Made by a program: the position numbers and the translations under genes
Notes under the pieces: generated by a model
Told to the model about the DNA's origin: nothing
Databases searched by the model: none
What the model saw: only the letters and a program-made list of their open reading frames with translations
Assembly: GCA_021734645.1 (NCBI GenBank)
Contig: JAIPIQ010000002.1
Coordinates: forward strand, 1 to 50,707
Reading direction: 5' to 3'
Origin: Fidelibacterota bacterium
Lineage (GTDB): Bacteria > Verrucomicrobiota > Kiritimatiellia > JAIPIQ01
Length of the DNA stretch: 50,707 nt
Shown here: piece by piece, positions 28,164-48,946 of the stretch
Numbering within the stretch: position 1 is the stretch's first letter
Layout of the letters: every line of letters starts with the position of its first letter

Positions 28164-28295
28164 CCGTCCCCCTGCTGAAACGGTGAGGGACACTTGAAGG
28201 GAAAGAAAACAACCGCCAAGAGCGAAAAAGATTTTTTCGATGCAATTCACGGAAACGCGTGATATGGTTAGCCTACATTTTTACGAGAGGTGAAT

Positions 28296-29264
28296 ATGGC
28301 GACAGCCGAACAACTTAAGTCCTTGATAAGAGCGCATTTCAGCGATGATGCGGAGCGCTTCTACTCCGTTTCGTTACAGGTGGCCGCAGGGGAGGCCCGG
28401 CAGGGACATGCCGGCTTGGCGCATGATCTACGCGAAATCATCGACACCGAACGCAAGAAGGACGGGCCGCGACTGCTCAGCTTTCCGAGGGATCTCAAAG
28501 GCCTGGTATTGACCGAGGAGCCTTCAACGCCGCTTTCTGCTATGGTCTTGCCGACAGCGATCAGAACTCGGCTTCATCGAATCGTACATGAATATCGGCA
28601 GCAGAATAAGCTGAAGCAATATGGCTTGGTTCATCGACGCAAGATTCTGCTCATCGGACCGCCCGGAACAGGCAAGACTATGACAGCAGAGGTTTTGGCC
28701 AAGGAATTGGACCTTACGCTGAACACCATACAGGTGGATCGACTCGTCACCAAATTTATGGGTGAGACGGGCGCCAAACTAAGGCAGATATTCGATCTAA
28801 TGCAACAGGCTCATGGCGTCTATCTCTTTGATGAGTTCGATGCCATTGGCGGGGATCGATCACACGACAACGATGTCGGTGAGATTCGGAGGGTTCTCAA
28901 TGCCTTTCTTCAATTTATTGAGCAGGATACATCGGACAGCCTGATCATCGCGGCCACAAATAATCCCGGCTTGCTCGACCATGCCCTGTTCCGTCGTTTT
29001 GACGATGTATTGCATTACGATAGGCCCTCGATTGATCAGGTGAAGTCATTGATTGAAAACGTGTTGAGTACATTCATTGCGCCCAGGTTTATTTGGAAAC
29101 GTATTGTTCAAGCGTGTGACGGATTAAGTCATGCCGAGATTGACCATGCCTGCCGGGATGCGATTAAGACCGTGATTCTCAAGGATGCCAAACAGGTTCG
29201 GGCATCCGATCTTATGACGGCCATTATGGACCGCCAGAATGCACGCAGCGGGAGGAATGGGTAA
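28296..29264 (+). CDS. ietA: AAA+ ATPase, IetA-like
   Basis: ATG 28296 follows AGAGGTG. Walker A is LLIGPPGTGKTM, Walker B is VYLFDEFDA, and sensor/arginine blocks are IIAATNNPGLLDHALFRRF. It is co-directional with an S8 peptidase gene, with a 5-bp gap. The symbol is assigned from the two-gene architecture, not from measured identity. Confidence 0.6.
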   Translation: MATAEQLKSLIRAHFSDDAERFYSVSLQVAAGEARQGHAGLAHDLREIIDTERKKDGPRLLSFPRDLKGLVLTEEPSTPLSAMVLPTAIRTRLHRIVHEYRQQNKLKQYGLVHRRKILLIGPPGTGKTMTAEVLAKELDLTLNTIQVDRLVTKFMGETGAKLRQIFDLMQQAHGVYLFDEFDAIGGDRSHDNDVGEIRRVLNAFLQFIEQDTSDSLIIAATNNPGLLDHALFRRFDDVLHYDRPSIDQVKSLIENVLSTFIAPRFIWKRIVQACDGLSHAEIDHACRDAIKTVILKDAKQVRASDLMTAIMDRQNARSGRNG

Positions 29265-29269
29265 TTGCA

Positions 29270-31198
29270 ATGGAAACACAACTACCCCACCTCATCATTA
29301 ATAACTTTGACAGCACCAGGTTCACAACAGGCAAGAAAGGTGGTGATCCGCCACGGAGACCTCCGCGTGATCGAGTAGCGCATAGTGAAATACTGAAGCA
29401 GCAACTTGAGGCCATTAGCCGTGAATCCGATGATATTGCTGAGTATCGCCGCGCCAAGGAGACGGCGGCATTCTGGCTGGATCTTCCCAACAAGGAACAG
29501 GCCGAATGGGTTGCTTCTGTTCTCAACAGACTGAATATCGCCTCTAACCCCGGCACGGCGATTTGTATTCTGGATACCGGCGTTAACCGAGGACATCCGC
29601 TGCTTTCGCCCTTGCTGTCAGAGGCTGATTGCACGAGCTTTGATCCCCTTTGGGGGGCACACGACCATGACAAACATGGCACCTTAATGGCTGGTATTGG
29701 TGCGTACAACAATTTGCAGGAGTTGCTGGCGCACAATGACGATGTCGTCCTGCGACACTGCCTGGAATCAGTTAAAATCCTCCCGCCGCATGCGGCGAAC
29801 GATCCCAACTTATGGGGACATATTACCGCACAATCGCTTTACAAAGCAGAGATACAGGCGCCGAATCGCAAGCGGATCGCTTGCATGGCGGTCACATCGG
29901 CTGACACCCGTGATCGAGGTCGGCCTTCATCTTGGTCCGGGGTTTTGGATCAATTGTGTTCAGGGGCCGATGATGACAATCGGCGGTTTTTCGTCGTGAG
30001 CGCCGGGAACTCGGCCGAAGATTCACGTGCGGTTTACCCCGAAGCACAGGAGACGGATTCCGTTCATGACCCGGCACAGTCTTGGAATGCGCTCACCATT
30101 GGTGCTTACACAAAGCTCAACGACATCCGCGATCCGACGATGTCCGGCTATGAGCCCGTTGCGCCGCGCAATGGACTCTCGCCATTCAGCACGACTTCCA
30201 ATGAATGGGAAGACCGCTGGCCGATAAAGCCCGAACTGGTATTGGAAGGCGGAAATCTAGCGAAGGACGCAAACGGTTTTCAGACCGTTTCCGATGATTT
30301 GTCCCTGTTGTCAACCTATTACGATCCGCAGAGAGCGCACTTCTATCCGTTCTGCATGACAAGCGCCGCCACGGCACAGGCGGCCTGGATGGCGGCTCAG
30401 ATTCATGTCCGGTATCCCGAGTTCTGGCCGGAGACCGTGCGCGGGTTGATGGTACACTCAGCCAATTGGACGGACACGCTCAAGGCACAGTTCTGCGATA
30501 GCGAGAACAAGGCGTCGTACAAGCATTTACTGCGGACATGTGGTTACGGAGTTCCAAGTCTGGAAAAGGCGCTCTTTTCGGCCAGCAACCGTCTGACCAT
30601 GATATCCCAGGCTGAGATTCAGCCATTCGACAAAAAGGATGGTGGAGGATATCGAACTCTCGACATGCACCTCTATGAATTGCCCTGGCCGAAGGACGTT
30701 CTGCAGGCAATGCCCCCCCATGCTGATGTGAAAATAAGAGTCACGTTGTCTTACTTCATTGAACCAAGCCCAGGAGAGGTTGGTTGGAAGGACCGTTACC
30801 GGTACGCGTCCCACGGTTTACGGTTCGACTTGAATTCCCCCACGGAAACCAGAGACCAGTTCAAGCGCCGAATCAATCAGGCAGCCAGAGATGAGGAGAA
30901 CGGGCATCCGGGTACAAACAGCCCATCAGGCCATTGGGTTTTGGGGCAGGCGCGTGACAAGGGGTCCATTCATTCGGATATCTGGAAGGGCTCAGCGGCG
31001 GAATTGGCGGAATCCAACCTGATTGCAATATCTCCTCTAGTTGGTTGGTGGCGGGAACGGCCGCACAAGGGAAAATGGAACCGGAAAACCCGGTATGCCT
31101 TGATTATCTCGATCGAGACGCCGGAAACGGAAGTGGACATCTACACGCCGGTCAGCGTCCAGCTTCAGGCGCCGGTGTCCATAGGCATTTCTATATAG
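29270..31198 (+). CDS. ietS: S8 (subtilisin-like) serine peptidase, IetS-like
   Basis: 642 aa. Triad contexts are CILDTGVNRGHP (Asp), HDKHGTLMAG (His) and CMTSAATAQAA (Ser). There is no signal peptide. It is paired with the upstream AAA+ gene. Confidence 0.6.
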   Translation: METQLPHLIINNFDSTRFTTGKKGGDPPRRPPRDRVAHSEILKQQLEAISRESDDIAEYRRAKETAAFWLDLPNKEQAEWVASVLNRLNIASNPGTAICILDTGVNRGHPLLSPLLSEADCTSFDPLWGAHDHDKHGTLMAGIGAYNNLQELLAHNDDVVLRHCLESVKILPPHAANDPNLWGHITAQSLYKAEIQAPNRKRIACMAVTSADTRDRGRPSSWSGVLDQLCSGADDDNRRFFVVSAGNSAEDSRAVYPEAQETDSVHDPAQSWNALTIGAYTKLNDIRDPTMSGYEPVAPRNGLSPFSTTSNEWEDRWPIKPELVLEGGNLAKDANGFQTVSDDLSLLSTYYDPQRAHFYPFCMTSAATAQAAWMAAQIHVRYPEFWPETVRGLMVHSANWTDTLKAQFCDSENKASYKHLLRTCGYGVPSLEKALFSASNRLTMISQAEIQPFDKKDGGGYRTLDMHLYELPWPKDVLQAMPPHADVKIRVTLSYFIEPSPGEVGWKDRYRYASHGLRFDLNSPTETRDQFKRRINQAARDEENGHPGTNSPSGHWVLGQARDKGSIHSDIWKGSAAELAESNLIAISPLVGWWRERPHKGKWNRKTRYALIISIETPETEVDIYTPVSVQLQAPVSIGISI

Positions 31199-31239
31199 GA
31201 CTGAGTTCCGCGCCTCGGTGTGACAACGAAGGATTTGAT

Positions 31240-31347
31240 ATGGCAAAGAGCAACACCCGTCTGGAACTGACCTGGATCGGCAAGGAGAACCGGCCCAAGC
31301 TGGAGCCGCGTATCCTGATCGAAGACCCGGAGAAGTCCTATCACGCG
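31240..31347 (+). pseudogene. N-terminal remnant of a type III-like DNA methyltransferase (Mod)
   Basis: MAKSNTRLELTWIGKENRPKLEPRILIEDPEKSYHA is the characteristic N-terminus of site-specific DNA methyltransferases of type III R-M systems. Similarity stops after ~36 codons, where the repeat word CACACGAAGGCACGAAGG begins. Confidence 0.6.
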
Positions 31348-31475
31348 ACGTTTCGGCGGGGAAGAGAAGAAAATAGCTCACACGAAGGCACGAAGGAGGG
31401 CGAAAAGAGGCCGGTGCGGCGGTTTGGGAAGGCGAAGGACGAGGGGCCGACGCTGTTCGATTATGGGGGGCTGAA

Positions 31476-32633
31476 ATGATGAAGAAGGGCATTGCCTCAC
31501 ACGAAGCCACGAAGGCACGACGACCGTGGGTGCCGGTTTACGGCATTACGCCGAAGGCTGCGAAGGATTTGATGCGGATCGAGGCCATCCGGACGGAGAT
31601 TGCCCATATTCCCCTTCCGCCGCCCGTCGAAGCCGAGTTGCGCCGTCAGGCGCGGGTGCGTTCCACGCACTTTTCAACGCGGATCGAGGGGAACAGGCTG
31701 ACCTTGGACGAGGCCGAACGGGTTATTCGTGATGACAGGGCGGTCTTTCAAGGGCGTGAACGCGATGTCTCGGAGGTGCGGAACTATTGGAATGCGCGTT
31801 TGCGTGTGGAGGAGTGGGCGGAAAAGGGCCGCCCGGTGACGGAAGACCTGATCAGGCGTTTGCACGCGCTGGTCGAGAAAGGGCCGCGCGCTCGTGCGAC
31901 GCCTTATCGCGACGGGCAGAATGCCATTCGGGACGCGGCGAGCGGGGCGCTCGTTTATCTGCCCCCCGAAGCCAAGGATGTGCCTGAATTGATGTCGGGG
32001 CTGGCGGCTTGGATAGAATCGGCTCTGCGCCTGGATGTTCCCGCCCCCATGGTTGCCGGTCTTGCCCACTACCAGTTTGTCACGATTCATCCCTATTACG
32101 ACGGCAACGGACGGACCGCGCGCCTGCTGGCAACATTTATCCTGCATCGGTCCGGATACGGGTTGAACGGGTTCCTTTCCGTCGAGGAGTTCCATGCGCG
32201 CGATTTGGCCGGATACTACGCGGCCCTCGCCGTACATCCACACCACAACTATTACATGGGACGAGCTGAAGCGGATTTGAGCGGCTGGACGGAGTACTTC
32301 ACCGGAATCTTGACGCAGACCTATGAAGCGGTTGCGGTGGAAGCGCGTCGGCTTGTGGATGCCGGGATCCAGACGGAACCGGTCTTCCTGCGATCTCTCG
32401 ACCGGCGGGCACGTACCGCGCTCGCCCTTTTCGCGAAGACGGAGCGGATCGGCGCACGTGACATTGCCGAGGCGCTGGCCCTCTCGGAGCGGATGGCCCG
32501 CGTGCTGCTGAAAGAGTGGGTTGAGACGGGCTGGATAGAAGTGGCGGACCCCTCGCGCAAGGCCCGCGCCTACATCTTATCGGCACAATATCGGCAATAT
32601 ATGGACGGTTTATCGGCAACGATTGGCGGTTAA
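31476..32633 (+). CDS. Fic/DOC family protein (AMPylator-type) with N-terminal inhibitory motif and C-terminal wHTH-like tail
   Basis: The Fic motif is HPYYDGNGRTARLL. The upstream STRIEGN fits the (S/T)xxxE(G/N) autoinhibition helix. The first ~15 codons (MMKKGIASHEATKARRP) are encoded by a repeat word, so the start is uncertain. Confidence 0.85.
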   Translation: MMKKGIASHEATKARRPWVPVYGITPKAAKDLMRIEAIRTEIAHIPLPPPVEAELRRQARVRSTHFSTRIEGNRLTLDEAERVIRDDRAVFQGRERDVSEVRNYWNARLRVEEWAEKGRPVTEDLIRRLHALVEKGPRARATPYRDGQNAIRDAASGALVYLPPEAKDVPELMSGLAAWIESALRLDVPAPMVAGLAHYQFVTIHPYYDGNGRTARLLATFILHRSGYGLNGFLSVEEFHARDLAGYYAALAVHPHHNYYMGRAEADLSGWTEYFTGILTQTYEAVAVEARRLVDAGIQTEPVFLRSLDRRARTALALFAKTERIGARDIAEALALSERMARVLLKEWVETGWIEVADPSRKARAYILSAQYRQYMDGLSATIGG

Positions 32634-33048: not shown

Positions 33049-33741
33049 TTACAGAACGACGTCATCCCAGGACATGTGCTCCGCCACATAAGGCGGCAGG
33101 CATTGATCGAGTCGCATGCCAAACCACTTTTTCGAACTATCGAAGAGGGTGACTATGCCAATGATCTTCATGTCTTCCGTGATGAGCGGTCCCCCGGCCG
33201 CGCCGGGTTGCCAGGCGTCCGTTTTGAAACGAATGAACGGTTGGTCCTTCCAGACCTGGAATTCGACTGCGCGCACAGTCTTGCCATCGGGTTGAAAGTG
33301 GTACCCTTTGAGCACGGCCGATTTCGCGCCGGACTCGAACCGGATTCGGGCAGGTTTCAAGGGCTCATAGAGTTCCTCGTAGTAAGCGGCGAACGAAAAG
33401 CCACCGGTCACACCGGTGTCATCCGTATCTGAGTACAAGGTTTGCCCGCTCAAAACCATCACGTCCATGGAGGTGGACACAAGGCAAGTGACGTCGGTCT
33501 CGCGGGTGGGTTCAGCCGCGTATCGGACTGAGTAGAGGTGCAGATCGGGGGGGTAAATCGGAAAGGTCGGGCATAAATGGGCACAGGTGAAGATATGCTG
33601 TTGGCAGAGAATGCCGAGATTGAGGAATTGTTCTTCCTCGCCCTCATCCGGGACGGGGACCCGCCCGACGCACCCGAATCTCTCCGGAATCCGGGGCGCG
33701 GCAATTTGTACGATGGCATCGAGTATCTGCTGAGTCATCAT
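33049..33741 (-). CDS. Chymotrypsin-fold (trypsin-like) peptidase homolog lacking the Ser nucleophile
   Basis: AGGAGA lies 7 nt upstream of ATG 33741 (MMTQQ...). His context is FTCAHL (H55), Asp context is SMDVMVL (D93), and QPGAAGGPL (180-185) aligns with GDSGGP with Ala at the Ser position. The spacing fits H57/D102/S195. The longer 443-aa ORF in the track is rejected. Confidence 0.5.
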   Translation of the reverse strand: MMTQQILDAIVQIAAPRIPERFGCVGRVPVPDEGEEEQFLNLGILCQQHIFTCAHLCPTFPIYPPDLHLYSVRYAAEPTRETDVTCLVSTSMDVMVLSGQTLYSDTDDTGVTGGFSFAAYYEELYEPLKPARIRFESGAKSAVLKGYHFQPDGKTVRAVEFQVWKDQPFIRFKTDAWQPGAAGGPLITEDMKIIGIVTLFDSSKKWFGMRLDQCLPPYVAEHMSWDDVVL

Positions 33742-33829
33742 GCGTTTTCTCCTGTTTTGGGGCTGCACTGCGGTTTCAACTCCAATCATACGCGCCCCAA
33801 CGACAAAGGGTGTCGTGGGGTGGAAACGT

Positions 33830-34453
33830 TTAGCGGGGCGTCTCATACGAACCGAGTCCCAGTTCGGTGGCAAAGGCGGTCTGGATGTCGCAATAAGGGC
33901 GTGTGGCGGGCAGGAAGTCGGCCATTTCGAAGAAGAACGGCGGCTCGCCGGGTTCCGCGGCCCGGCCGACCCGCAGCCGGTAAAGCGTGAACGCCACCGG
34001 CGCGCTGTCCCCATACGATGCGCCGGTTTTCCGCTGCCCGACCACAACCAGGGCCGCCGAATCCGGCACGGATTCGGGCGGCCGCAAAACCCGGATGTCG
34101 CGCAAATCGCAGTCCGCCCCCGAGACCGTGCCCAGCGCATACTTTTCGGGATGGCCATCCAAACCGGGAAACGGCACCGCGTGCCAGGTGCCCCCGGCAA
34201 AGACAAAGAACAGGAAGATGTTGTGGCTATGGGCATTATAATTTTCCCGGCGGGCCATGAAGACCAGATCGGCCGCGCCATCCCCGTCCAGATCCACTTC
34301 GTTGGGGCCATTTCCCAGCGGAACAACCCGCCACGCTGCCAGCAGCGCCCGCCCCCGCTGCGCCACCGCCGGCGGCCCACTGCCCGCCCAACCCAGCCAA
34401 AGCCCCCCGACCAGCAACCCGCCCGTCAAAAGTAACATATTTACGGATTTCAC
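33830..34453 (-). CDS. Secreted hypothetical protein with FG-GAP/VCBS-like Ca-binding loop
   Basis: It has a signal-like N-terminus (MLLLTGGLLVGGLWLGWAGSG), DLDGDGAADLV and normal amino-acid composition. It overlaps, in another frame, the R/W-rich head of the 443-aa ORF. Confidence 0.55.
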   Translation of the reverse strand: MKSVNMLLLTGGLLVGGLWLGWAGSGPPAVAQRGRALLAAWRVVPLGNGPNEVDLDGDGAADLVFMARRENYNAHSHNIFLFFVFAGGTWHAVPFPGLDGHPEKYALGTVSGADCDLRDIRVLRPPESVPDSAALVVVGQRKTGASYGDSAPVAFTLYRLRVGRAAEPGEPPFFFEMADFLPATRPYCDIQTAFATELGLGSYETPR

Positions 34454-34492: not shown

Positions 34493-34852
34493 TCAAGCAA
34501 TTTGTCGGTACTCTAAATCCACCTCAGCCGACCGTAATTCCGACAGCAGTTCCCGACGTTCCGTCGGGGTCAAGCGTTGAATCACCCGAATGATCTGATC
34601 CAAACGAATTGCGCGACCCAACGACAACTCCGCGACCGCAGGCGGATTCCAGTGTTCACTGTAGTAATAGCCACGCCGTTCCGGATGAAACACCAACGGC
34701 GCACCCAGCATATCTCTCATATATTCCACATCCCGGGCAACAGTCCGGGGAGAAACCTCATACAAACGGGCGAAACTGTTGCAATTGGGAAATGCCCGCT
34801 CCCGAATCCGCTCATCAAATGCCGCCAACCGCGCCAACTGGCTCTTCTTCAT
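34493..34852 (-). CDS. Small HTH transcriptional regulator (HTH_11/DeoR-type, like the N-terminal module of WYL regulators, no WYL domain)
   Basis: 119 aa. The pattern FPNCNSFARLYEVSPRTVARDVEYMRDMLGAPLVFHPERRGYYY is the typical HTH plus first strand of WYL-type regulators. GGAG lies upstream of the ATG. Confidence 0.6.
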   Translation of the reverse strand: MKKSQLARLAAFDERIRERAFPNCNSFARLYEVSPRTVARDVEYMRDMLGAPLVFHPERRGYYYSEHWNPPAVAELSLGRAIRLDQIIRVIQRLTPTERRELLSELRSAEVDLEYRQIA

Positions 34853-35098
34853 CCCTGACTCCTTTTGATTGGTTGAATCACGAACAAAAACAGCTTGAAA
34901 AGAAAATATTGCGACTGAAAAATTCTACAGATGAGAAAACCTGAATTTCTCCTTTATTTCGGCGCTATCTTATCAGGCTGACCGAAAAAATCAAGCAAAT
35001 TCTGCGGCGGGGGGGCGGAAAGCGCCTCGCATTATTGATAATTGCAGGTCAGCAGGACGGAGTGGCTCACGGGCGCCGCCCATAGTTATAAAAATTGC

Positions 35099-35148
35099 CA
35101 AGTTAACAAACTGAGGTGGTAAATTGTTAACTTGTCGAATTTGTTAAG
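35099..35148. promoter_or_regulatory. Operator-like inverted repeat CAAGTTAACAA-N14-TTGTTAACTTG plus a third half-site
   Basis: The perfect 11-bp arms lie at 35099-35109 and 35124-35134. A further AATTTGTTAAG lies at 35138-35148. All sit in the 420-bp A/T-richer gap upstream of the HTH gene and downstream of the ClpX-like gene. Confidence 0.45.
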
Positions 35149-35272
35149 AACGCGGTAGTCCTGTGCGGGGAGGTTGGTAATGCGTCGTTTCGCGGGTGTC
35201 TGCCAGGGCGGGCGGGGCAGAATGCCTTTGCGAGCAGTGGCGCAGCGACCTGTTGGACACGTAGTCCCGCCC

Positions 35273-37057
35273 TCAGTACTGCATCTCGCGGGCGCGTTCG
35301 GGCTCTGGGAGTGGCGGGGGAAGCTGGATATCGAGGTCCCATTGGATGCCCTGGTTGTCGGTGTACAGGCGGATGGATTTGACCTTGCGGGGGGCTGAGT
35401 AAGCGGCGAAGCAGGCGGCATTGATGTGTTCCGCGAGGTGGGCGGTGAGTCCGCGGGCGCCGGTCTTGCGGGCCATGGCCTGCTCGATCATGAGGCGCTT
35501 GACGGGGGGTGCGATATCGAGGGTCATGCCACTCAGGCGCAATTCGTGTTCGAAACGGCGGATGACATTACGTTCCAGGATTTGCGTCATTTCCTCGAAG
35601 GAAAGCGGGTTGAAGCGGGCGATGAGGGCGATGCGGCCGAGAATCTCGCTCATCAGGCCGTATTTGCGGAGCGCCTCGAGGTCGTCGTCGGCCGTGGCAG
35701 GCCGGGGCGCGCTGTTGAAGCCGATGGCTGCCGCCGAGGTTTGCCGGGTGGCTTCCCAGCCGCTGAAGGTTCCGCAGCAGAGGAACAAGACATTGGCGGT
35801 GCGCAGGTGTTTGCGGGTTCCCCGGCGCGAGCCTTCATGGGGCCCATGGAAGAAGTCCAGCACGGCGTCCTCTTCCATGACCTTGAGCAGGCTCCGCTGG
35901 GCCCCGAAGCGCGCGGCCTCATGGCGGGGTGATAGGCTGTTCCGGGTCTCGGTCGAGGCGGCCAGTTTATCGAACTCGTCAATGATACAGACGCCGCACT
36001 CGGCCCAGGGCAGGTTGCCCCTGGTGGCCGCAAACAACTGGGTACCAATCAGGGCGGAGTCTTCCCCCACGTAGCCGGTTTCCGTGAGGGTGGTGGCGTC
36101 TATCAGGGCCAGGGGCAGCCCGAGGATTTCTCGGAACAGGGTCTGGGCCAGGCACGTCTTGCCGGTACCGGTGGGGCCAATGAACAGGCAGTTGTCACGC
36201 GGCGGAATGTCGCGCGGATTGACGTCCTCCAAAAAAATGCGCTTGAGACGCTGAATATGCCGGAAGGCAGCCAGACAAATCATCTGGCGGGCCGAATCCT
36301 GACCGACATACCCCCGGCGGGCGACTTCATCATACAGCTCCCGCGGAGTGGTTTGCGGCAGCGCGGCCAGAAACTCCCGGACCGGCGGATGTTCACATTT
36401 TTCCTTGCGCGCAGGGGGGGGGGCTTCCTCGTGGACGTCGTCGTCGGAGTCTTCAGAGGGCGAGTCGTCGTGAATCGCAGGCAGCGCGGGACGCGACCAG
36501 CGCTGAAGCGATTGGCCCAGGACCAGGTTGTCTGGCGTCAGTTCCAGCGCCCCGATTCTGAGCAGTTGGGCGATGATCCGGCGGGCCATGAGTACACCCT
36601 CGAGCGCCCGCTCGGAGAAATGGCAACTGGCCATGCGCGCGATATGGTCGGGCGACGTGCCGCTGTGCTTCAGCAAGCCGTCGCAGAAACCCACGAGCGC
36701 CAGCACCGCCAGATGCCCCGGAAGCGGACGACGCCCCCCCGCGCGCTTGATTACGCGGCGCAACGGACCGCAGTGGGCGTCGGATGGCACCATCTGCAGC
36801 ACCCGTTTCATCTGCCGGTCCACCTCTTCAATCGGGTCGCCCGGCAGATCCTGCCAAGCCTCAACATAGTGTGAATCCTTGCACCGCACGCGGTACAACC
36901 GGAACATCGCTTCCCCCAGCGCCAGAAACTGCATCACGCACGCATCCTGGGCCGTCATGACACCCGCGCCCGCCCCCACATCCCGCGCCCCCCCGCGCCG
37001 CACCGTCACGCCACGCCCCACCACCGCCCCCATTTCATCCTGCGCCTCTGTATCCAT
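35273..37057 (-). CDS. ClpX-family AAA+ unfoldase paralog with a non-canonical ~225-aa N-terminal region (no zinc-binding domain)
   Basis: Start at ATG 37057 (MDTEAQ), with AAGGAG upstream. The AAA+ module includes LPQTTPRELYDEV..YVGQDSA, Walker A GPTGTGKT, pore loop TGYVGED, Walker B CIIDEFDK, AAIGFNS at the IGF-loop position, LGRIALIARFNPLSFEEMTQIL and AMARKTGARGL. Confidence 0.85.
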   Translation of the reverse strand: MDTEAQDEMGAVVGRGVTVRRGGARDVGAGAGVMTAQDACVMQFLALGEAMFRLYRVRCKDSHYVEAWQDLPGDPIEEVDRQMKRVLQMVPSDAHCGPLRRVIKRAGGRRPLPGHLAVLALVGFCDGLLKHSGTSPDHIARMASCHFSERALEGVLMARRIIAQLLRIGALELTPDNLVLGQSLQRWSRPALPAIHDDSPSEDSDDDVHEEAPPPARKEKCEHPPVREFLAALPQTTPRELYDEVARRGYVGQDSARQMICLAAFRHIQRLKRIFLEDVNPRDIPPRDNCLFIGPTGTGKTCLAQTLFREILGLPLALIDATTLTETGYVGEDSALIGTQLFAATRGNLPWAECGVCIIDEFDKLAASTETRNSLSPRHEAARFGAQRSLLKVMEEDAVLDFFHGPHEGSRRGTRKHLRTANVLFLCCGTFSGWEATRQTSAAAIGFNSAPRPATADDDLEALRKYGLMSEILGRIALIARFNPLSFEEMTQILERNVIRRFEHELRLSGMTLDIAPPVKRLMIEQAMARKTGARGLTAHLAEHINAACFAAYSAPRKVKSIRLYTDNQGIQWDLDIQLPPPLPEPERAREMQY

Positions 37058-37197
37058 AACGACTCCACTCCTTTTCCCGCACAGTCTACTACACCACCCT
37101 GTCACCTGATGTCCTACGGCAAATCTCCCAGCCACCCGCGCCAAAGCCTGCAACCGGACGGTTCGTCGCCAGATCACACTACATCTTGGCGCGAGCC

Positions 37198-37725
37198 CTA
37201 TTCGTCTTTGTCATCCCACCAATCAGCTTCCCAAAGAGTGGCCGTCCGATAGCCCTCAGCCCGCGCGCGCGCCTCGATTCTTCCGAGAATTTCCTGCATC
37301 TGATCCCGGGTTTCGATCTGCTTGAACCCAACCGGCGCATCAACGCCAACCGCTCTCATCACTTTCCCGTCTATCGGAGGAAACAACGGCATCTTCCCGG
37401 GCTGTCCCATCAGCCACAGGTACTTGAGGTAGAGACTGACGCATTTCTGGGCCACCCCCAGCGTGATCATCCCCGGGTTGAGAATCTGGGAGTGGGTTTT
37501 GTTGATGGCGTCACGCAGACGCTCAATCTCGCCGTAGTAGCTGTCTGCATCGTATACCCAATGAATATAGCGACGCCCCAGGGCGGAAAGCCAAACCTTC
37601 AGGTCGCTTTTCAGCTCATTCCGCAGCGCAATATCCACGTCGCGACGATATACCGGCGTTCCCCGCTGCAACGCTGCATTCACGGAGTTTCTTAACGCCA
37701 TGTTTTCAATAAACGGGTGCAACAT
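37198..37725 (-). CDS. Hypothetical protein, paralog of 42455-43012 (possible HhH/OGG-like fold)
   Basis: 175 aa. AAAGGAG lies 9 nt upstream. Blocks shared with the paralog are YRR, I..LRD..N, AQK.(V/I)S..LK.LW.M, P.D and a W-containing tail. It lies directly upstream of, and co-oriented with, the ClpX-like gene. Confidence 0.6.
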   Translation of the reverse strand: MLHPFIENMALRNSVNAALQRGTPVYRRDVDIALRNELKSDLKVWLSALGRRYIHWVYDADSYYGEIERLRDAINKTHSQILNPGMITLGVAQKCVSLYLKYLWLMGQPGKMPLFPPIDGKVMRAVGVDAPVGFKQIETRDQMQEILGRIEARARAEGYRTATLWEADWWDDKDE

Positions 37726-37938: not shown

Positions 37939-40599
37939 ATGCCCTATAGATGGCCCCAGAAGGTGGAACGGTATCGCATCGTTTGTCCTTTTCAGCGGTT
38001 CCTGGTGGCGAAATACGAAGCGGTGATTCAGTGGCATGAGGGGCAGATCGAGTCGCCCGAGGCGCTGGATGCGCACATTCGCGAGGTCATGCTGCCGAAA
38101 CTCCAGCGCTGTATCACGCCGGGGGATAATAAGAGCCATTATTGCCGGTCCATCAATCTCGAGCACATGCTGGCGAATCCCGCGCCACACATCGAGGAGG
38201 CTCGGCAGCTCAAGGCCCGGCAGGGGGAGGATGCCGCCCGGCAGTTCCTGATCCGGCATATCAACGGGCAGAAGCGGGAGATATTCGATGGATGGTGGCG
38301 GTATGTGACGGAGGGGAACCCAGTCTATGCCGAGGCGCCCGCGTTTCAATATCTGGTCCTGCGGCCCGTGCTTGAGACCTCCAACGCAAAGTGCACGCGT
38401 TCGCCGGTGCCGGTGGACGCCGAAGCGCTGGCGGCGCTGTATGACGGCATCCGGGACGAAGAAATCACGCCGAACGACAGCCTTGTGCGCAAGTTGTGCG
38501 AGTTTATGGCTTTCGAGCGCCAGGCGGCGGGCTCCGCACCTGCTTTCGGCACCGCCTGCGGGTGGGTCACCATCACCCGAGACCAAGCGAAAGCGGCCGA
38601 ACGTGTCGCGGCCCTCTCCCAGGGTAGCGGCTGGTGCGTGGCTTCAAGCAACATGGCCGCGTCCTACTTGCGTTCATCCGACTTCCACCTGCTGGTGGAA
38701 GGCGGGCGGGCCAAGGCCGCTATCCGGATATCGGGGAATAGCGCCGTGGAAATCCAAGGCCCCGGCAACCGCGATCCGGGACTCTGGTGGCCGCGCATCC
38801 AGCTCTATCTCAATGCCCGGGCCGTGAAGATGATTAGCCATCGATGCCGCGAAGCCCTCGCGGGAGGCAACAGGTACCGAAATCAACTGGCCGCCATCCA
38901 GACGCTCAGGGCGCTTGCCGACCACCTGAAGATGCATCCCGCCCAGGTGCAGTTCCTGCCCGAGGACGTCAACCACGATGAAGCCTACCGCCCCATCATC
39001 GAAACCGCCTGGCGCGCCTGCATCTTGGCCGACCCCGTCTGTCTCGCCCTGGCGCCTGCCTGGATGCCGCGCGATGAACAACTTATGGCCCAGGTGCTGG
39101 CCGGCTGGCGCAATCTGCTTAACCTCGACCCGCCGGCTATCCTGCGCATGCCGGCCGACCTGCAGCAGCGCCCTGACTTTCAGGCCGCCCGCCTGCAGGG
39201 GTGGATGGAGCTGATCGGGCGGGATCCCGAGCATTTCCGCCAATGCCCGGCGGAACTGAGAAACGATCCCGAAATCCTCGCCGCCCACAAGCAGGGGTTG
39301 ATGGTTCTAATCAAGCGTAATCCTGAGAAGTTCGATCAGTGTCCGGCGGAACTGAGAAACGATCCCGAAATCATCGTCGCCCGCAAGCAGGGGTGGATGG
39401 ATCTGCTCATACGTGAGCCGGCAATGTATGCTAAATGCCCGGATGATGTAAGGCTGGATTCGGATGTGGAGAGGGCGCTCAAGACACACTGGACAAAACA
39501 GCTCAAGGCGGATGCTTCCCGCGTTTTGTTCACAGGCTATCCCGAAAGAATAACTCGCCATGTGCTAGAGGAACTTTATCCAGCGGCCTCGTACCGTGAC
39601 TGCTGCGCCAGAAGAATCAAAGAGAACCCGAAAATCATCTATCGTATTCCCAAATGGGTTAAATCCCTGCCGGGTATTTTAGAGCTGATTGAACAGGGCC
39701 GGCAGTTATGGCCTGCTGCCTGGGCCAAGCAGAAAAAGGGGATCGGCTCTGATAAGACCATTCGCTTCTATAACAGGCTTCCCGCCGGCGTCAGGAACAC
39801 CCCGGAAATCCAACGCCAATACCGAGAAAACTGGCTGGCTCGTCTGCGCCGCTTTCCCGGCTCGATACCCGCCAGATGCCCGCCAGAGTTTCTGCAGGAT
39901 CCGGATTTCATAAAACAACTGCAGGATTGTATCACCGAGTATCTTCGTTCTCCGCAAGGGAGAAGAGTTCGCCTTCCGCGCTTACGTAAAGAGTGGCAAG
40001 CCAGTGAGGGGGATGTCCGGATTCCGCTGCTAATGCAGTTGCTTGATGATATTGAGGCAGGCCGCATGCCGTGTACAGGGGCGGTAGATCTTGCTTCCAT
40101 AGACTGGAATGCGGCCTCGGCGGAAGAGAAGGCCGCAGTGCGCGAGGTACTGAACAGGGATCCGGCGCGCATGGAAGGAGCATCGGCATCAGTGCAGGGC
40201 GACCCAGAAATGCGTGCCGTGGTTTTCAAGGCTTGGCTGGCCAAGGCCAAGCTTATGGCAGACGCGGATGGAATTCCCAGCAAGATCTTGCGTGAGCCCG
40301 CATTTCGGGACAAGCTCGTAAAGCATTGGAAGACATCCAGGGATTTGTCCTGGGAAGACTGGATGAAGTGCCCGGACTTTGTGAGGGCCGATTCCGAGGT
40401 GGCGTGGCGCGCGGTGGTACCGCTGACCAAGGCGTTGCGGACGAATCCTCGGGTCTGGGGACAGGTCCAATCGCCCTGGCGCGAGATGGAGACGCTGCGG
40501 CGCGAGGCCGCGGAGAACTGGGTTGCCACGCCGTCCTGCGACGGGCAGCCGCCGCCGGAGGACATTGCGGGGCTGGTTGCCGAGCTGCTGGCGGAGTGA
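37939..40599 (+). CDS. Large PcfJ-like domain protein with C-terminal array of ~32-aa CP..L(R/K)..PE(I/F)..A...GW repeats (DUF4116-like)
   Basis: 886 aa, with AGGAG upstream. The central block GWCVASSNMAASYLRSSDFHLLVEGGRAKAAIRISGNSAVEIQGPGNRDPGLWWPRIQLYLNA is conserved in the two paralogs at 45377 and 47780 and resembles the PcfJ signature (C....Y......(x)..EI.G..N). At least 6 tandem repeats follow. The PcfJ and DUF4116 labels come from memory of family patterns. Confidence 0.6.
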   Translation: MPYRWPQKVERYRIVCPFQRFLVAKYEAVIQWHEGQIESPEALDAHIREVMLPKLQRCITPGDNKSHYCRSINLEHMLANPAPHIEEARQLKARQGEDAARQFLIRHINGQKREIFDGWWRYVTEGNPVYAEAPAFQYLVLRPVLETSNAKCTRSPVPVDAEALAALYDGIRDEEITPNDSLVRKLCEFMAFERQAAGSAPAFGTACGWVTITRDQAKAAERVAALSQGSGWCVASSNMAASYLRSSDFHLLVEGGRAKAAIRISGNSAVEIQGPGNRDPGLWWPRIQLYLNARAVKMISHRCREALAGGNRYRNQLAAIQTLRALADHLKMHPAQVQFLPEDVNHDEAYRPIIETAWRACILADPVCLALAPAWMPRDEQLMAQVLAGWRNLLNLDPPAILRMPADLQQRPDFQAARLQGWMELIGRDPEHFRQCPAELRNDPEILAAHKQGLMVLIKRNPEKFDQCPAELRNDPEIIVARKQGWMDLLIREPAMYAKCPDDVRLDSDVERALKTHWTKQLKADASRVLFTGYPERITRHVLEELYPAASYRDCCARRIKENPKIIYRIPKWVKSLPGILELIEQGRQLWPAAWAKQKKGIGSDKTIRFYNRLPAGVRNTPEIQRQYRENWLARLRRFPGSIPARCPPEFLQDPDFIKQLQDCITEYLRSPQGRRVRLPRLRKEWQASEGDVRIPLLMQLLDDIEAGRMPCTGAVDLASIDWNAASAEEKAAVREVLNRDPARMEGASASVQGDPEMRAVVFKAWLAKAKLMADADGIPSKILREPAFRDKLVKHWKTSRDLSWEDWMKCPDFVRADSEVAWRAVVPLTKALRTNPRVWGQVQSPWREMETLRREAAENWVATPSCDGQPPPEDIAGLVAELLAE
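39244..39400 (+). repeat. Near-identical 96-bp-period internal duplication within the repeat array
   Basis: 39244-39304 versus 39340-39400 show 5 differences in 61 nt by manual alignment. They encode CPAELRNDPEILAAHKQGLM and CPAELRNDPEIIVARKQGWM. Confidence 0.85.
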
Positions 40600-40779
40600 G
40601 CGGGTGCGGCATGGTCCTTTTCCCGCTGTCGGACGACACGGAGGCCGTCCCTCCAAATAGCCAGACACCATGACATCCATTGGCAGCGCCCCGCAGTAAA
40701 CTTCAGAAAAATACTGACCGACCCCCTCGCGACGGGTTATCGTTGAGCCGAAGATAGGTCCACAATTGGAGGATGAAGC

Positions 40780-41472
40780 ATGTGCATGCCCGACATACTG
40801 CAAGAGGAAGCAACGCGCATCAGGGGACTCGACGTTGACCACCAAGAAATACTGTTTGATCGCAATAGCTGGAGAAAACATATCCCCGATCTTGACGACC
40901 TGCTTGCCGGAATCCCCGGTGATCTCATTTCCCGTCACACAATGTACGGCATTGCCCCAAACGACCCGCCGCTGCCGGCACCTTGTACGCCAGCCCGGCA
41001 GGCGGATCTCCGCCGGTTCTTCATCCTGGTCATGATCTGGGGTTACGGGAATGTGGGCACAGGCCCTTGGAGAGTGAGCCAGATGATCGCCTCTCCCCGT
41101 TTCCCAGAAATCCTCTGCCGTGTAAGTGAAGAATGCTTTTGCGGCTTCTTCCTGAAGGCGTACGACACGTTGATCTCCAACATCAAATGGCTCGGCCCAG
41201 CTTTCGCATCCAAGTACCTGTACTATTTCTGCCGGAAAGTTCCAGCCCATGTCAAGCCCCTGATCTGTGACCGCGTCGTTCTTCGCGCCATGCGCACCTT
41301 CGACTGGCCAGCGTGGTGTGTGAACTACATTGCTGATGGGAACACACCGCGCCGTCAAGCTCACGCATATGGCCAGTACCTCATCCTCATGCATAACTGG
41401 GCGCATGCACTGGGTTGCCGTCCAGACCAGCTCGAGTACTTCCTTTGGAGAAGAGGAACAGAAGCAATCTGA
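40780..41472 (+). CDS. OGG-fold (8-oxoguanine DNA glycosylase-like fold) family protein
   Basis: 230 aa, with GGAGGA 7 nt upstream. The pattern VMIWGYGNVGTGPWRV.....L.GPAFASKYLYYFC......PLICDRVV is what I recognise as the '8-oxoguanine DNA glycosylase OGG fold protein' family. No catalytic assignment is possible. Confidence 0.5.
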   Translation: MCMPDILQEEATRIRGLDVDHQEILFDRNSWRKHIPDLDDLLAGIPGDLISRHTMYGIAPNDPPLPAPCTPARQADLRRFFILVMIWGYGNVGTGPWRVSQMIASPRFPEILCRVSEECFCGFFLKAYDTLISNIKWLGPAFASKYLYYFCRKVPAHVKPLICDRVVLRAMRTFDWPAWCVNYIADGNTPRRQAHAYGQYLILMHNWAHALGCRPDQLEYFLWRRGTEAI

Positions 41473-41490
41473 GCCGAAAAGAGGTCCACA

Positions 41491-42454: not shown

Positions 42455-43012
42455 CTATATCCTAAACTTATCTAATTCCCATTCAGCAAGTGCTTTCCTG
42501 TCGTCCCCCTTAGCTCTGATCAGGTGAGCAATCTTTTCGCGATGGTCAGCGAGCGAGTTGACGTAACCCCACTTGGTGTCTGGATAGCGCTTGCCGGCGG
42601 CCTTAAGAATTCTACTATCTACTGGACATTGAGGTGGAGTTGCCACGTCGTTCATGCACCAAAGGTGCTTGAGGAAGACCGAAATGCTCTTCTGCGCATG
42701 CGAAATGCGAAATCCTGGGTCAGTATGGTATCTCTCGTGCGGCTGTGAATAGAAAGCATCTGAAAACTCGCGATTCATGTTATCTCGGAGCGTTTGGATG
42801 TCGTTTTCATAAGTATCGACAGCCTGGGGAATTCTGTAACGCTTCGCTATCTCCACAAGGCATTCTTTCCATGCCGCTATTACATCAGCCTTGCGCGCCG
42901 TGGAAAGTCCCCGCCTATAAAGCGAGTTGTGCTGCACTGCCGCCATAATCGCACTCGATAGGGCTTTGTCGCGGGTCCTCATGGGGTTGTATTTGTTGAG
43001 AAATTCAATCAT
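42455..43012 (-). CDS. Hypothetical protein, paralog of 37198-37725
   Basis: Start moved to ATG 43012 (MIEFLNKY), which has AGAGGGA upstream. The ATG at 43063 lies only ~9 nt from the predicted -10. It shares the AQKSISVFLKHLWCM...CPVD block with the 175-aa paralog. Confidence 0.6.
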   Translation of the reverse strand: MIEFLNKYNPMRTRDKALSSAIMAAVQHNSLYRRGLSTARKADVIAAWKECLVEIAKRYRIPQAVDTYENDIQTLRDNMNREFSDAFYSQPHERYHTDPGFRISHAQKSISVFLKHLWCMNDVATPPQCPVDSRILKAAGKRYPDTKWGYVNSLADHREKIAHLIRAKGDDRKALAEWELDKFRI

Positions 43013-43071
43013 TGTTCCCTCTCTGTGCGAAATAGCTAGTGCTTTATTGGATTGTTTTATCATTAAGGAAG

Positions 43072-46863: not shown

Positions 46864-46893
46864 CCGGACCGCCGCCACTGGGAATGTCTGGGG

Positions 46894-48919: not shown

Positions 48920-48946
48920 TATGGGCCGAAACATAAGGAGCTGGTT

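What the first reader, a model, noticed from the sequence alone, without database searches (positions are those of the whole stretch)
35273..37725. Stand-alone ClpX paralog with a novel N-terminal region, operonic with a small unknown protein: candidate new defence or regulatory module
The C-terminal ~365 aa are unmistakably ClpX. They carry LP..TP.ELYDEV..YVGQD, GPTGTGKT, the GYVG pore loop, IIDEFDK, LGRIALIARFNPLSFEEMTQIL and AMARKTGARGL. An IGF tripeptide (AAIGFNS) sits where ClpX docks onto ClpP, implying it could still deliver substrates to ClpP. The ~60-aa C4 zinc-binding adaptor/substrate domain is replaced by ~225 aa of unrelated sequence. That region has no CxxC pairs and ends in an acidic linker (SPSEDSDDDVHEE). 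The gene is not next to clpP, tig or lon. It sits in the accessory island, co-oriented 140 bp downstream of a 175-aa protein that has a paralog elsewhere in the island (42455-43012), and upstream of the HTH regulator. A substrate-recognition domain swap on an unfoldase in a defence context suggests triggered proteolysis of a phage or host target. I do not recognise this pairing as any named system.
Basis: partly seen in the sequence, partly recalled or inferred. Interest (0 to 1): 0.75.

Follow-up and report, generated by a model that had tools for sequence, protein, structure and literature searches.

The report
Accessory ClpX-like unfoldase, swapped N-domain
This is an intact gene for a rare, unstudied relative of the protein-unfolding motor ClpX, with a different front-end domain; it sits beside known anti-phage genes, but its proposed partnership with the small upstream gene is not seen in any relative.

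Summary
Window 35273-37057 (-) encodes a 594-aa protein. Residues ~233-560 are a ClpX-type AAA+ module with Walker A/B, the GYVG pore loop, the IGF loop, the arginine finger and sensor-2. The zinc finger is replaced by ~230 aa without CxxC.

This N-region is not an orphan. It is a conserved helical domain, possibly winged-helix-like. Five database proteins and three further genes read from fetched loci share the same architecture. Together they form a clade separate from housekeeping ClpX.

In all 8 relatives' loci with upstream sequence, the upstream gene is a different small basic protein. Recombinase genes, and in three loci RuvB-like genes, lie close by. The window has no homolog of that protein.

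Homologs of the 175-aa protein were never found next to a ClpX-like gene. One lead remains. The closest 175-aa homolog lies in a three-gene cluster with a homolog of the window's HTH gene, around a different middle gene.

An IetAS plus SoFic defence island lies 2.6 kb away. No ClpP is present. The most likely function is a dedicated ClpP-docking unfoldase for a specific target. A defence role is untested.

The parts
35273..37057 (-). ClpX-like AAA+ unfoldase gene (594 aa, P0001). The ORF stays open upstream to a GTG at 37177, but the ATG at 37057 has the RBS.
   Evidence: ORF. RBS and start. ClpX profile E 8e-53. PDB ClpX E 5e-40. Coding periodicity.
36959..37057 (-). Residues 1-33: a Gly/Arg/Val-rich N-terminal extension with no counterpart in relatives.
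   Evidence: Alignment A2 shows it as a gap in the relatives. An alternative internal start at Met34 cannot be excluded.
36488..36958 (-). Residues 34-190: conserved family-specific N-domain that replaces the ClpX zinc finger. Helical bundle followed by a helix-helix-helix-beta-hairpin (winged-helix-like). Motifs: LxLG (44-49), PLRR (97-101), LALVGF (119-124), PDHIA (136-140), GVLMAR (154-159).
   Evidence: Full HMMER search found 5 proteins of the same architecture. Alignments. AF2 model has block pLDDT mostly 81-95 over its first 150 residues (dips to 54-71 at 21-40 and 91-100). No significant PDB fold or sequence match. Motif coordinates.
36362..36487 (-). Residues 191-232: acidic and Pro-rich linker (SPSEDSDDDVHEE...), predicted disordered.
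   Evidence: pLDDT below 50 for model residues 160-195. Poorly conserved in A2 and A4.
35276..36361 (-). Residues 233-594: ClpX-type AAA+ large and small domains plus a C-terminal tail. Walker A at 36155-36178; pore-1 GYVG at 36065-36076; Walker B at 35966-35986; basic TRKH loop at 35807-35818; IGF loop at 35711-35731; Arg finger at 35624-35644; sensor-2 GARGL at 35447-35464.
   Evidence: Residue-level alignment to E. coli ClpX. Invariant columns in the family alignment. Coordinates.
37198..37725 (-). 175-aa all-helical protein of a small uncharacterised family. Co-oriented, 140 nt upstream of the ClpX-like start. Association with the ClpX-like gene is not conserved.
   Evidence: 22 homologs plus the window's own protein, all unnamed or 'hypothetical protein'. 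Alignment A1. AF2 pLDDT 93.5. No fold match in PDB or BFVD. Neighbourhoods.
34493..34852 (-). 119-aa HTH protein resembling the N-terminal HTH of WYL-type regulators, with no WYL domain. Lies 420 nt downstream of the ClpX-like stop and has its own RBS. A 47%-identical homolog lies two genes from the closest 175-aa homolog in L003.
   Evidence: HTH_11 E 0.0019. PADLOC WYL model, N-terminal 63 positions, E 2.5e-6. tblastn E 8e-27 to L003:6742-7083.
35086..35147 (.). Imperfect inverted repeat (24-nt arms, 79% complementary) holding two exact TTGTTAAC octamers. Lies in the AT-rich gap between the ClpX-like stop and the HTH start. Candidate operator only.
   Evidence: Inverted repeat I3. The octamer occurs only here in the window, twice, against 0.33 expected by chance. 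Sequence.
42455..43063 (-). Paralog of the 175-aa protein (185-202 aa depending on start). Lies downstream of an ankyrin-repeat gene.
   Evidence: BLASTP 26% identity, E 2e-14. Aligns with family A1.
28290..32633 (+). Context: known defence genes IetA (28290-29264), IetS (29270-31198) and SoFic (31476-32633), at the start of the lower-GC island.
   Evidence: PADLOC IetA 241 bits, IetS 120 bits, SoFic 165 bits. Pfam AAA, Peptidase_S8 and Fic. GC profile.

Best explanation
**What it is.** The gene encodes a functional accessory member of the ClpX family. It should form a hexameric AAA+ unfoldase that threads substrates through GYVG pore loops. Because the [I/L/V]GF docking loop is kept across the whole clade, it most likely hands substrates to the host's ClpP.

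**How it selects substrates.** The zinc-finger adaptor and substrate domain is replaced by a clade-specific helical, possibly winged-helix-like, N-domain on a flexible acidic linker. I infer that this domain gives the enzyme a narrow, dedicated client.

**What relatives suggest.** In relatives, the obvious candidate client or adaptor is the small lysine-rich protein always encoded immediately upstream. Recombinase genes lie just downstream in four of those loci, and RuvB-like genes in three. That would make a mobile-element control switch that remodels or degrades a DNA-binding protein.

**The window's copy.** It has lost that partner. It sits as a solo gene in an accessory and defence island, between an unrelated 175-aa helical protein and a short HTH regulator. 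These may have become its new regulatory context.

**Shown versus inferred.**
- Shown: family membership of the AAA+ module, integrity of the motifs, conservation of the N-domain, and the neighbourhood patterns.
- Inferred: ClpP docking, dedicated substrate selection, and any link to the neighbours or to defence.
For: **AAA+ module and motifs.**
- ClpX-type module with all catalytic and pore motifs, and IGF aligned to the E. coli IGF.
- [I/L/V]GF, Walker A/B, GY[VC]G and the sensor-2 Arg are kept in all six aligned family members.
- The N-region shows coding periodicity.

**N-domain.**
- N-domain homology to five proteins of 539-584 aa with the same architecture, E 9e-6 to 3e-4 against 1.84 billion proteins.
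- Three further members were read from loci.
- In the model, confident helices are followed by an H-H-H-beta-hairpin, and the linker is disordered.

**Separate clade.**
- In an NJ tree of the AAA+ modules, the window protein groups with P0144, P0146 and P0147 at 99% bootstrap, and with L017 and L019 at 82%.
- The seven canonical-type ClpX sequences form a separate clade at 100%.

**Conserved partner in relatives.**
- A small basic protein lies upstream in 8 of 8 loci, with gaps of 2-281 nt.
- Integrase, resolvase or RuvB-like genes lie within about 1.3 kb downstream in L014, L016, L021 and L022; the integrase in L019 lies about 4.6 kb downstream.

**Precedent.** Myxococcus xanthus ClpX3 lacks the N-domain, is isolated in the genome, appears horizontally acquired, and gives a heat-stress phenotype when deleted (PMC11423568).
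Against: - No ClpP is present in the window or in any fetched locus, so docking is inferred only from the IGF loop.
- The window lacks the clade's conserved partner, so the proposed client is missing here and the gene could be functionally orphaned.
- The N-domain has no significant structural relative. The best Foldseek E is 0.18, so 'winged-helix-like' rests on topology and weak hits only.
- The RKH-like basic loop is not conserved across the clade.
- The family is known from only nine genes, most on short contigs.
- No expression or functional data exist.
Confidence: 0.55

Rival explanations
1. **The first reader's model.** The 175-aa protein and the ClpX-like ATPase form a new two-gene anti-phage or regulatory module. 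On a trigger, it directs ClpP-dependent proteolysis of a phage or host target.
For: - The two genes are co-oriented with a 140-nt gap, and no terminator-like site lies between them.
- They lie 2.6 kb from SoFic and IetAS.
- Neither protein has an annotated function.
- The 175-aa protein folds confidently into a compact helical domain.
Against: - Eleven loci with 175-aa homologs (three distinct neighbourhoods) have no ClpX-like gene within up to 8 kb of flank.
- None of the relatives of the ClpX-like gene has a 175-aa homolog nearby.
- Those relatives carry a different upstream partner that shows no profile-level similarity to the 175-aa family (hhalign probability 0.2%).
- PADLOC gives only generic P-loop hits of 25 bits or less.
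Confidence: 0.08
2. **Three-gene cassette with a swappable middle gene.** The short HTH regulator and the 175-aa helical protein are the conserved frame. The ClpX-like ATPase is the cargo or effector in this locus, and an unrelated 277-aa protein fills that slot elsewhere.
For: - In L003, L004 and L005 the order is HTH (113 aa, 47% identical to the window's HTH), then a 277-aa unknown, then the 179-aa homolog (61% identical). The gaps are 21 and 62 nt.
- These two genes are the only ones shared between L003 and the window.
- The window's order on the minus strand is 175 aa, ClpX-like, HTH.
- The HTH resembles the N-terminus of WYL-type regulators that control defence operons (PADLOC WYL model).
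Against: - Only two independent loci support this.
- The gene order is permuted.
- The window's HTH is separated by 420 nt and has its own RBS.
- The more distant 175-aa homologs in L006-L011 have no such HTH. Instead they overlap a 681-aa FG-GAP protein by 4 nt.
- The 277-aa protein has no recognisable domain.
Confidence: 0.15
3. **Housekeeping ClpX.** This is the organism's only ClpX, merely divergent and with a lineage-specific N-terminus.
For: - All motifs needed for ClpXP function are intact.
- The contig is only 50.7 kb, so a second clpX cannot be shown.
Against: - It scores about half the curated ClpX cut-offs: 180 against 359 bits, and 173.5 against 370.75 bits.
- It falls in a clade separate from the clade of canonical-type ClpX, which has 100% bootstrap.
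- There is no zinc finger, and no clpP in the window; no tig or lon was found among the window ORFs scanned against Pfam.
- It lies in an accessory island that starts right after the core genes, where GC drops.
- Its relatives sit beside integrases, on contigs ranging from 41% to 54% GC.
Confidence: 0.04
4. **Decaying remnant.** This is a leftover of a mobile-element module that lost its partner, RuvB-like and recombinase genes. The ORF is intact but no longer does anything useful.
For: - The partner gene, conserved in 8 of 8 relatives' loci, is absent.
- No recombinase was found in the island ORFs that were scanned.
- The protein is a singleton at 90% identity.
Against: - The 594-codon ORF is uninterrupted, and every catalytic residue and N-domain motif is preserved.
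- Codon-position GC periodicity is strong, and GC3 of 0.78 is close to the core genes at 0.79-0.82. This is not what is expected of a drifting pseudogene.
Confidence: 0.15

Closest known systems
Canonical bacterial ClpX (E. coli ClpX; NCBIfam NF003745 and TIGR00382; PDB 8e91, 6wr2, 3hws)
   Same: - Same AAA+ large and small domains.
- About 35% identity over about 325 residues.
- Walker A/B, GYVG pore-1 loop, IGF ClpP-docking loop, arginine finger and sensor-2 GARGL are all present.
   Different: - No C4 zinc-binding N-domain; a roughly 230-aa unrelated N-region takes its place.
- Scores about half the equivalog cut-offs.
- Forms a separate clade.
- Not linked to clpP, tig or lon.
- The pore-2 and RKH regions are diverged.
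Myxococcus xanthus ClpX3 (MXAN_2743), and the 380-406-aa zinc-finger-less ClpX-like proteins found here (P0002-P0006, P0149, P0150)
   Same: - Extra ClpX paralogs without the zinc-finger domain.
- Isolated from clpP.
- ClpX3 is thought to be horizontally acquired and dispensable, with a condition-specific heat-stress role (PMC11423568).
- The short proteins are the nearest neighbours of the window's clade in the AAA+ tree, and they share the LAAYRH-type box.
   Different: - Those proteins simply lack an N-domain; the window protein has a conserved new one.
- The short forms sit in housekeeping-like neighbourhoods.
- MXAN_2743 itself was not compared here.
Unnamed clade of N-domain ClpX-like proteins (P0144-P0148; genes in L017, L018, L019)
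   Same: - Same two-part architecture, same N-domain motifs and same AAA+ clade.
   Different: - Every other member with visible upstream DNA has a small lysine-rich partner gene upstream.
- Most have RuvB-like, integrase or resolvase genes downstream.
- The window has none of these.
- N-domain identity to the window protein is only 15-26%.
ClpX as a remodeller of recombination and regulatory complexes in phage Mu biology (MuA transpososome disassembly, Mu repressor degradation). From my own knowledge; not tested here.
   Same: A ClpX-type unfoldase acts on a specific DNA-bound protein of a mobile element. This is the working analogy for the partner and recombinase neighbourhoods of the clade.
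   Different: In Mu it is the host's canonical ClpX that recognises C-terminal tags. Here the element would encode its own ClpX variant with a new recognition domain. No experimental link exists.
IetAS (AAA+ ATPase plus subtilase defence / toxin-antitoxin pair), present in the same island
   Same: An AAA+ ATPase coupled to proteolysis in a defence setting (PMC13069673).
   Different: - IetA is a classic-clade AAA protein, not Clp-type.
- The window's ClpX-like protein matches the IetA models only over the P-loop, at 24.6 bits.
- No protease gene is adjacent to it.

Membership tests
ClpX (housekeeping, NCBIfam equivalogs NF003745 / TIGR00382) | Whole-protein score at or above the curated cut-off | tested here: not met
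   179.7 bits against a cut-off of 359, and 173.5 bits against 370.75.
ClpX (housekeeping, NCBIfam equivalogs NF003745 / TIGR00382) | N-terminal C4 zinc-binding domain (Pfam PF06689) | tested here: not met
   No PF06689 hit. No CxxC in residues 1-235. Canonical hits all carry PF06689.
ClpX (housekeeping, NCBIfam equivalogs NF003745 / TIGR00382) | AAA+ module with Walker A/B, GYVG pore-1 loop, Arg finger and sensor-2 | tested here: met
   Residue-level alignment to E. coli ClpX. Motif positions.
ClpX (housekeeping, NCBIfam equivalogs NF003745 / TIGR00382) | IGF loop for ClpP docking | tested here: met
   AAIGFNS (residues 443-449) aligns with GSGIGFGA of E. coli ClpX. G446 and F447 are invariant in the clade. 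Actual ClpP binding was not testable.
ClpX (housekeeping, NCBIfam equivalogs NF003745 / TIGR00382) | Groups with canonical ClpX in a phylogeny | tested here: not met
   In the NJ tree of 336 columns, the canonical-type ClpX sequences form their own clade at 100% bootstrap. The window protein lies in another clade at 99% and 82%.
ClpX (housekeeping, NCBIfam equivalogs NF003745 / TIGR00382) | Genomic linkage to clpP, tig or lon | tested here: not met
   No ClpP homolog in the window (tblastn). The annotated neighbours are accessory genes. The rest of the genome was not available.
N-domain ClpX-like clade (unnamed; P0144-P0148, L017-L019) | Homologous N-terminal domain of about 160 aa ahead of the AAA+ module | tested here: met
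   phmmer with the N-region alone gives E 9e-6 to 3e-4 to five proteins of 539-584 aa, all matching at their N-termini. Shared motifs.
N-domain ClpX-like clade (unnamed; P0144-P0148, L017-L019) | AAA+ module clusters with the clade | tested here: met
   99% bootstrap with P0144, P0146 and P0147; 82% with L017 and L019 added. P0145 and P0148 are long branches placed elsewhere.
N-domain ClpX-like clade (unnamed; P0144-P0148, L017-L019) | Small lysine-rich 'NPYR...HRS...YYVE' protein encoded immediately upstream | tested here: not met
   Present in 8 of 8 relatives' loci with upstream DNA. Absent from all six frames of the window (hmmsearch --max best E 1.3; tblastn).
Known anti-phage defence systems (PADLOC-DB v2) | Match to a defence-system protein model beyond a generic P-loop | tested here: not met
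   The ClpX-like protein's best hit is IetA at 24.6 bits over 83 residues around Walker A. The 175-aa protein has no hit. The HTH matches only the N-terminal HTH of the WYL model.
HslU | Score at or above the curated cut-off, and an I-domain insertion | tested here: not met
   57.4 bits against a cut-off of 362; only the first roughly 100 residues of the AAA+ module match.

The most novel reading that the evidence does not exclude
The clade is a previously unrecognised kind of ClpX-based switch. It would be an element-encoded unfoldase whose new N-domain captures one cognate DNA-binding protein, so as to remodel it or feed it to host ClpP. In this window the motor would have been rewired into a three-gene cassette: a 175-aa helical protein, the unfoldase, and a short HTH regulator. 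That cassette would act as a new defence or regulatory system with a swappable effector slot.
Probability: 0.12. Interest if true: 0.75.

Novelty: new variant of a known kind. Interest (0 to 1): 0.45.

Why it matters
ClpX is one of the best-studied AAA+ unfoldases, and its substrate choice is normally explained by the zinc-finger domain plus adaptors.

A clade that keeps the motor and the ClpP-docking loop but swaps in a different, conserved recognition domain would be a natural experiment in retargeting a protease motor. This is especially so because in relatives it is always paired with one small basic protein, and in most of them a recombinase gene lies nearby.

If the client is a DNA-binding regulator of a mobile element, or a phage protein, the system could reveal a new way that mobile elements or defence islands use host ClpP.

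For this particular window the value is more modest. The result documents the clade, removes the proposed pairing with the 175-aa gene, and leaves one testable lead: the HTH and 175-aa genes framing a variable middle gene.

Tried and rejected
**Looking for the 175-aa / ClpX-like pairing.**
1. Neighbourhoods of the nearest ClpX-like hits (P0003, P0005, P0006) are housekeeping-like and share nothing.
2. Neighbourhoods of 175-aa homologs contain no ClpX-like gene.

**Looking for remote homology.**
3. Profile-profile comparisons found none between the 175-aa family, the clade's upstream partner and the N-domain. hhalign probabilities were 0.2% or less.
4. The 175-aa protein and its paralog show no similarity to the nearby OGG-like protein.

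**Fold and sequence searches.**
5. A very confident 175-aa model found nothing in PDB or BFVD (best E 0.96 and 0.066).
6. The N-domain model gave only weak, non-significant winged-helix-type hits.
7. Profile searches against PDB sequences found nothing.

**Searches that added little.**
8. The second and third word-indexed homolog searches were swamped by canonical ClpX. They did not even return the true family members.
9. The genome and metagenome scans with the N-region alignment were driven by the junction motif and yielded only four loci.

**Other collections.**
10. There are no relatives in viral contigs or in plasmids. One viral scan could not run because the partner alignment was too variable.
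11. Rfam and tRNA scans of the window found nothing.

**Literature.**
12. Searches for ClpX-like defence components or a ClpX-RuvB-integrase module found nothing relevant apart from M. xanthus ClpX3.

14. No shared operator was found between the window's HTH upstream region and that of L003.


Full report
**1. What is in the sequence**

The window is a complete 50,707-bp contig held in NCBI.
- Its left half is chromosomal core. It carries mnmG at 2054-3949, a type II secretion ATPase, a hybrid kinase, dnaA at 25236-26597 and an M24 peptidase at 26878-28041.
- From about 28.2 kb the GC content drops and an accessory island begins. In order it holds:
  - IetA and IetS at 28290-31198, and SoFic at 31476-32633. 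The PADLOC scores are 241, 120 and 165 bits.
  - A CarG-like / trypsin-like region.
  - A short HTH gene at 34493-34852 (-).
  - The ClpX-like gene.
  - The 175-aa gene at 37198-37725 (-).
  - A divergent 886-aa DUF4116 protein, an OGG-like protein, a paralog of the 175-aa protein at 42455-43063 (-), and ankyrin-repeat proteins.

*The ClpX-like ORF.*
- It is open from 37177, but the ATG at 37057 has an AGGAG 10 nt upstream. The codons before that ATG lack coding periodicity. The gene is therefore 35273-37057, 594 aa.
- ClpX profiles match residues ~233-560 with E 8e-53, and E. coli ClpX structures match with E 5e-40. IGF aligns to IGF and GYVGED to GYVGED.
- The N-terminal ~230 residues are truly coding: GC3 is 0.74-0.84 and GC2 is low.

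**2. The N-terminal region is a conserved domain of a rare clade**

- Word-indexed searches returned only the AAA+ half. They suggested an orphan N-terminus.
- A full HMMER scan of 1.84 billion representatives with residues 1-240 alone found five proteins, P0144-P0148, of 539-584 aa. All match at their own N-termini (E 9e-6 to 3e-4), and all carry a ClpX-like module behind the match.
- Three more divergent members were read from fetched loci: L017 (582 aa), L018 (partial) and L019 (544 aa).
- The alignment shows shared N-domain motifs: LxLG, PL[RK], LALVAF, DS[IV]A and GxLxAR. It also shows invariant Walker A/B residues, a GY[VC]G pore loop, an [I/L/V]GF loop and the sensor-2 arginine.
- In a neighbour-joining tree of the AAA+ modules:
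  - the window protein groups with P0144, P0146 and P0147 at 99% bootstrap;
  - adding L017 and L019 gives 82%;
  - the nearest neighbours are zinc-finger-less ClpX-like proteins of about 380-406 aa, though their own grouping has weak bootstrap support (3-30%);
  - the seven canonical-type ClpX sequences form a separate clade at 100%.
- An AlphaFold model of the N-domain, built from six rows, is mostly confident over about 150 residues. It is helical and ends in a helix-helix-helix-beta-hairpin arrangement. The acidic linker is disordered.
- Foldseek found no significant relative (best E 0.18). The weak hits include several winged-helix proteins. 'Winged-helix-like' is therefore a hint, not a result.

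**3. Gene neighbourhoods do not support the proposed pair**

*175-aa family.*
- It has 22 homologs plus the window's own protein, all unnamed or 'hypothetical protein'.
- Its model is a very confident all-helical fold with pLDDT 93.5. It matches nothing in PDB or BFVD, and it has no Pfam match.
- In eleven loci that fall into three distinct neighbourhoods, no ClpX-like gene is present.
- The 36-39%-identical homologs overlap a downstream 681-aa FG-GAP protein by 4 nt.

*ClpX-like clade.*
- In all 8 loci where upstream DNA is visible (L014-L019, L021, L022), the preceding co-oriented gene encodes a small protein. It has a lysine-rich N-terminal tail and a conserved C-terminal 'NPYR...SGK...YD.AVI.SP..G..HRS..YYVE' domain. 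The gaps are 2-281 nt.
- This partner has no Pfam, PHROG or PADLOC match.
- It shows no profile similarity to the 175-aa family.
- It has no homolog in any frame of the window.
- Downstream of the clade's genes lie:
  - a RuvB-like AAA+ gene in L014, L016 and L021;
  - small tyrosine recombinases in L016, L019 and L021;
  - a resolvase in L022;
  - in L019, an RHS toxin and a 1204-aa Lon_C protein.
- None of these neighbours is a known defence system.
- The clade is absent from the viral-contig and plasmid collections searched.
- No ClpP homolog is present in the window or in any locus.

**4. One unexpected link**

- The closest 175-aa homolog (P0122, 61% identity) lies in a tight three-gene row in L003, L004 and L005. 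The order is a 113-aa HTH protein, a 277-aa unknown, then the 179-aa protein.
- That HTH is 47% identical (E 8e-27) to the window's HTH gene, which sits just downstream of the ClpX-like gene.
- These two genes are the only ones shared between L003 and the window.
- HTH and 175-aa genes therefore bracket a different middle gene in two otherwise unrelated loci, although the order is permuted.
- In the window, the 420-nt AT-rich gap upstream of the HTH gene holds an imperfect inverted repeat with two TTGTTAAC octamers. They occur nowhere else in the window.
- This is a lead for a cassette with a swappable middle gene. It rests on two loci.

**5. Most likely mechanism**

*Shown.*
- The gene encodes an intact ClpX-type motor with a clade-specific N-domain.
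- It belongs to an accessory clade, not to the housekeeping one.

*Inferred.*
- It hexamerises.
- It docks on the host's ClpP through the conserved IGF loop.
- It uses the N-domain, tethered by a flexible acidic linker, to select a narrow client.
- In relatives, the always-adjacent basic protein is the best candidate client or adaptor. The recombinase and RuvB-like context suggests control of a mobile element. This is analogous to host ClpX acting on Mu transposase and repressor (my own knowledge, not tested here).

*The window copy.*
- It has lost that partner and sits between the 175-aa gene and the HTH gene, near IetAS and SoFic.
- Whether it now serves defence, regulation or nothing cannot be decided from sequence.

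*Rival readings and my confidence in each.*
- The three-gene cassette: 0.15.
- A remnant that no longer functions: 0.15. The intact motifs and host-like codon composition argue against it.
- Housekeeping ClpX: 0.04.

**6. Comparison with what is known**

- The closest characterised relative is canonical ClpX, but the gene fails four membership tests: the score cut-offs, the zinc finger, the phylogenetic clade and clpP linkage.
- The closest published precedent for such paralogs is M. xanthus ClpX3. It lacks the N-domain, is isolated in the genome, is probably horizontally acquired, and gives a heat-stress phenotype when deleted (PMC11423568).
- No paper in the searched library describes a ClpX variant with this N-domain, or its partner.

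**7. Verdict**

- It is a real, intact and unusual ClpX-family gene. I rate it a new variant of a known kind.
- The specific 'ClpX plus 175-aa' module is not supported.
- The defence reading rests only on proximity to defence genes.
- Interest is moderate (0.45). It comes mainly from the clade with its conserved partner, and from the HTH/175-aa lead.

Noticed in passing
window 28290-32633 (+): A complete IetAS pair sits at the island's left edge, right after the core genes dnaA and M24 peptidase. IetA is at 28290-29264 and IetS (a subtilase) at 29270-31198. A SoFic-type Fic protein follows at 31476-32633. All give strong PADLOC hits.
   Followed up: yes
L003:6742-8540 (also L004, L005) compared with window 34493-37725: Homologs of the window's HTH gene (47% identity) and 175-aa gene (61% identity) bracket an unrelated 277-aa protein of unknown function in another, otherwise non-syntenic locus. 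The gene order is permuted relative to the window. This may be a cassette with a variable middle gene.
   Followed up: partly
L014:28-3609, L016:2-3888, L021:1513-5961, L017:55-2378, L018:783-2666, L019:6804-9023, L022:1746-5035: Relatives of the ClpX-like gene sit in a recurring cluster. The order is a small lysine-rich protein with a conserved 'NPYR...HRS...YYVE' domain, then the N-domain ClpX-like gene, then sometimes an 87-96-aa hydrophobic (possibly membrane) protein, then a divergent RuvB-like AAA+ gene with no RuvA gene called in the sequence shown, then a short tyrosine recombinase (or a resolvase in L022). This looks like the backbone of an undescribed mobile element.
   Followed up: partly
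window 35086-35147: An imperfect inverted repeat with two exact TTGTTAAC octamers, found nowhere else in the window. It lies in the 420-nt AT-rich gap between the ClpX-like stop codon and the HTH gene. It may be an operator.
   Followed up: partly
window 37939-40599 (+), repeats at 39184-39470: The 886-aa protein divergent from the 175-aa gene has only a weak DUF4116 match. It contains three tandem 96-nt (32-aa) repeats. A 73-nt stretch of it at 38763-38835 is 75% identical to 45613-45685, inside a 152-aa ORF. This indicates paralogous fragments within the island.
   Followed up: no
window 45403-45528 and 47875-48000; ankyrin genes at 43491-44552 (-) and 46894-47607 (-): A 126-nt direct repeat at 94% identity lies 2.5 kb apart, and there are two ankyrin-repeat genes. 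The right part of the island therefore seems to contain a segmental duplication. Several ORFs there (45877-46878, 47783-49225, 48947-50077) have no family match.
   Followed up: no
window 40744-40766 and 41470-41492: A 23-nt direct repeat (91% identity) lies just upstream of the start codons of two consecutive genes: the OGG-like glycosylase at 40780-41472 and the unknown 302-aa protein at 41491-42399. It may be a shared leader or regulatory element.
   Followed up: no
window 33049-34453 (-): Two long ORFs overlap in different frames. One is 443 aa with a weak Trypsin_2 match at its C-terminus (33049-34380). The other is 207 aa with a CarG-like match (33830-34453). The true gene structure here is unresolved.
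   Followed up: no
window 6267-7121 (-): An AbiEii-type nucleotidyltransferase toxin domain (Pfam E 5e-8) lies in the core part of the contig, far from the island. It has no PADLOC hit.
   Followed up: no
L006:8001-10585, L009 and L011 equivalents: More distant 175-aa homologs (36-39% identity) overlap the start of a 681-aa FG-GAP repeat protein by 4 nt. This arrangement is conserved across several samples. In that lineage the family is probably translationally coupled to a quite different partner.
   Followed up: partly
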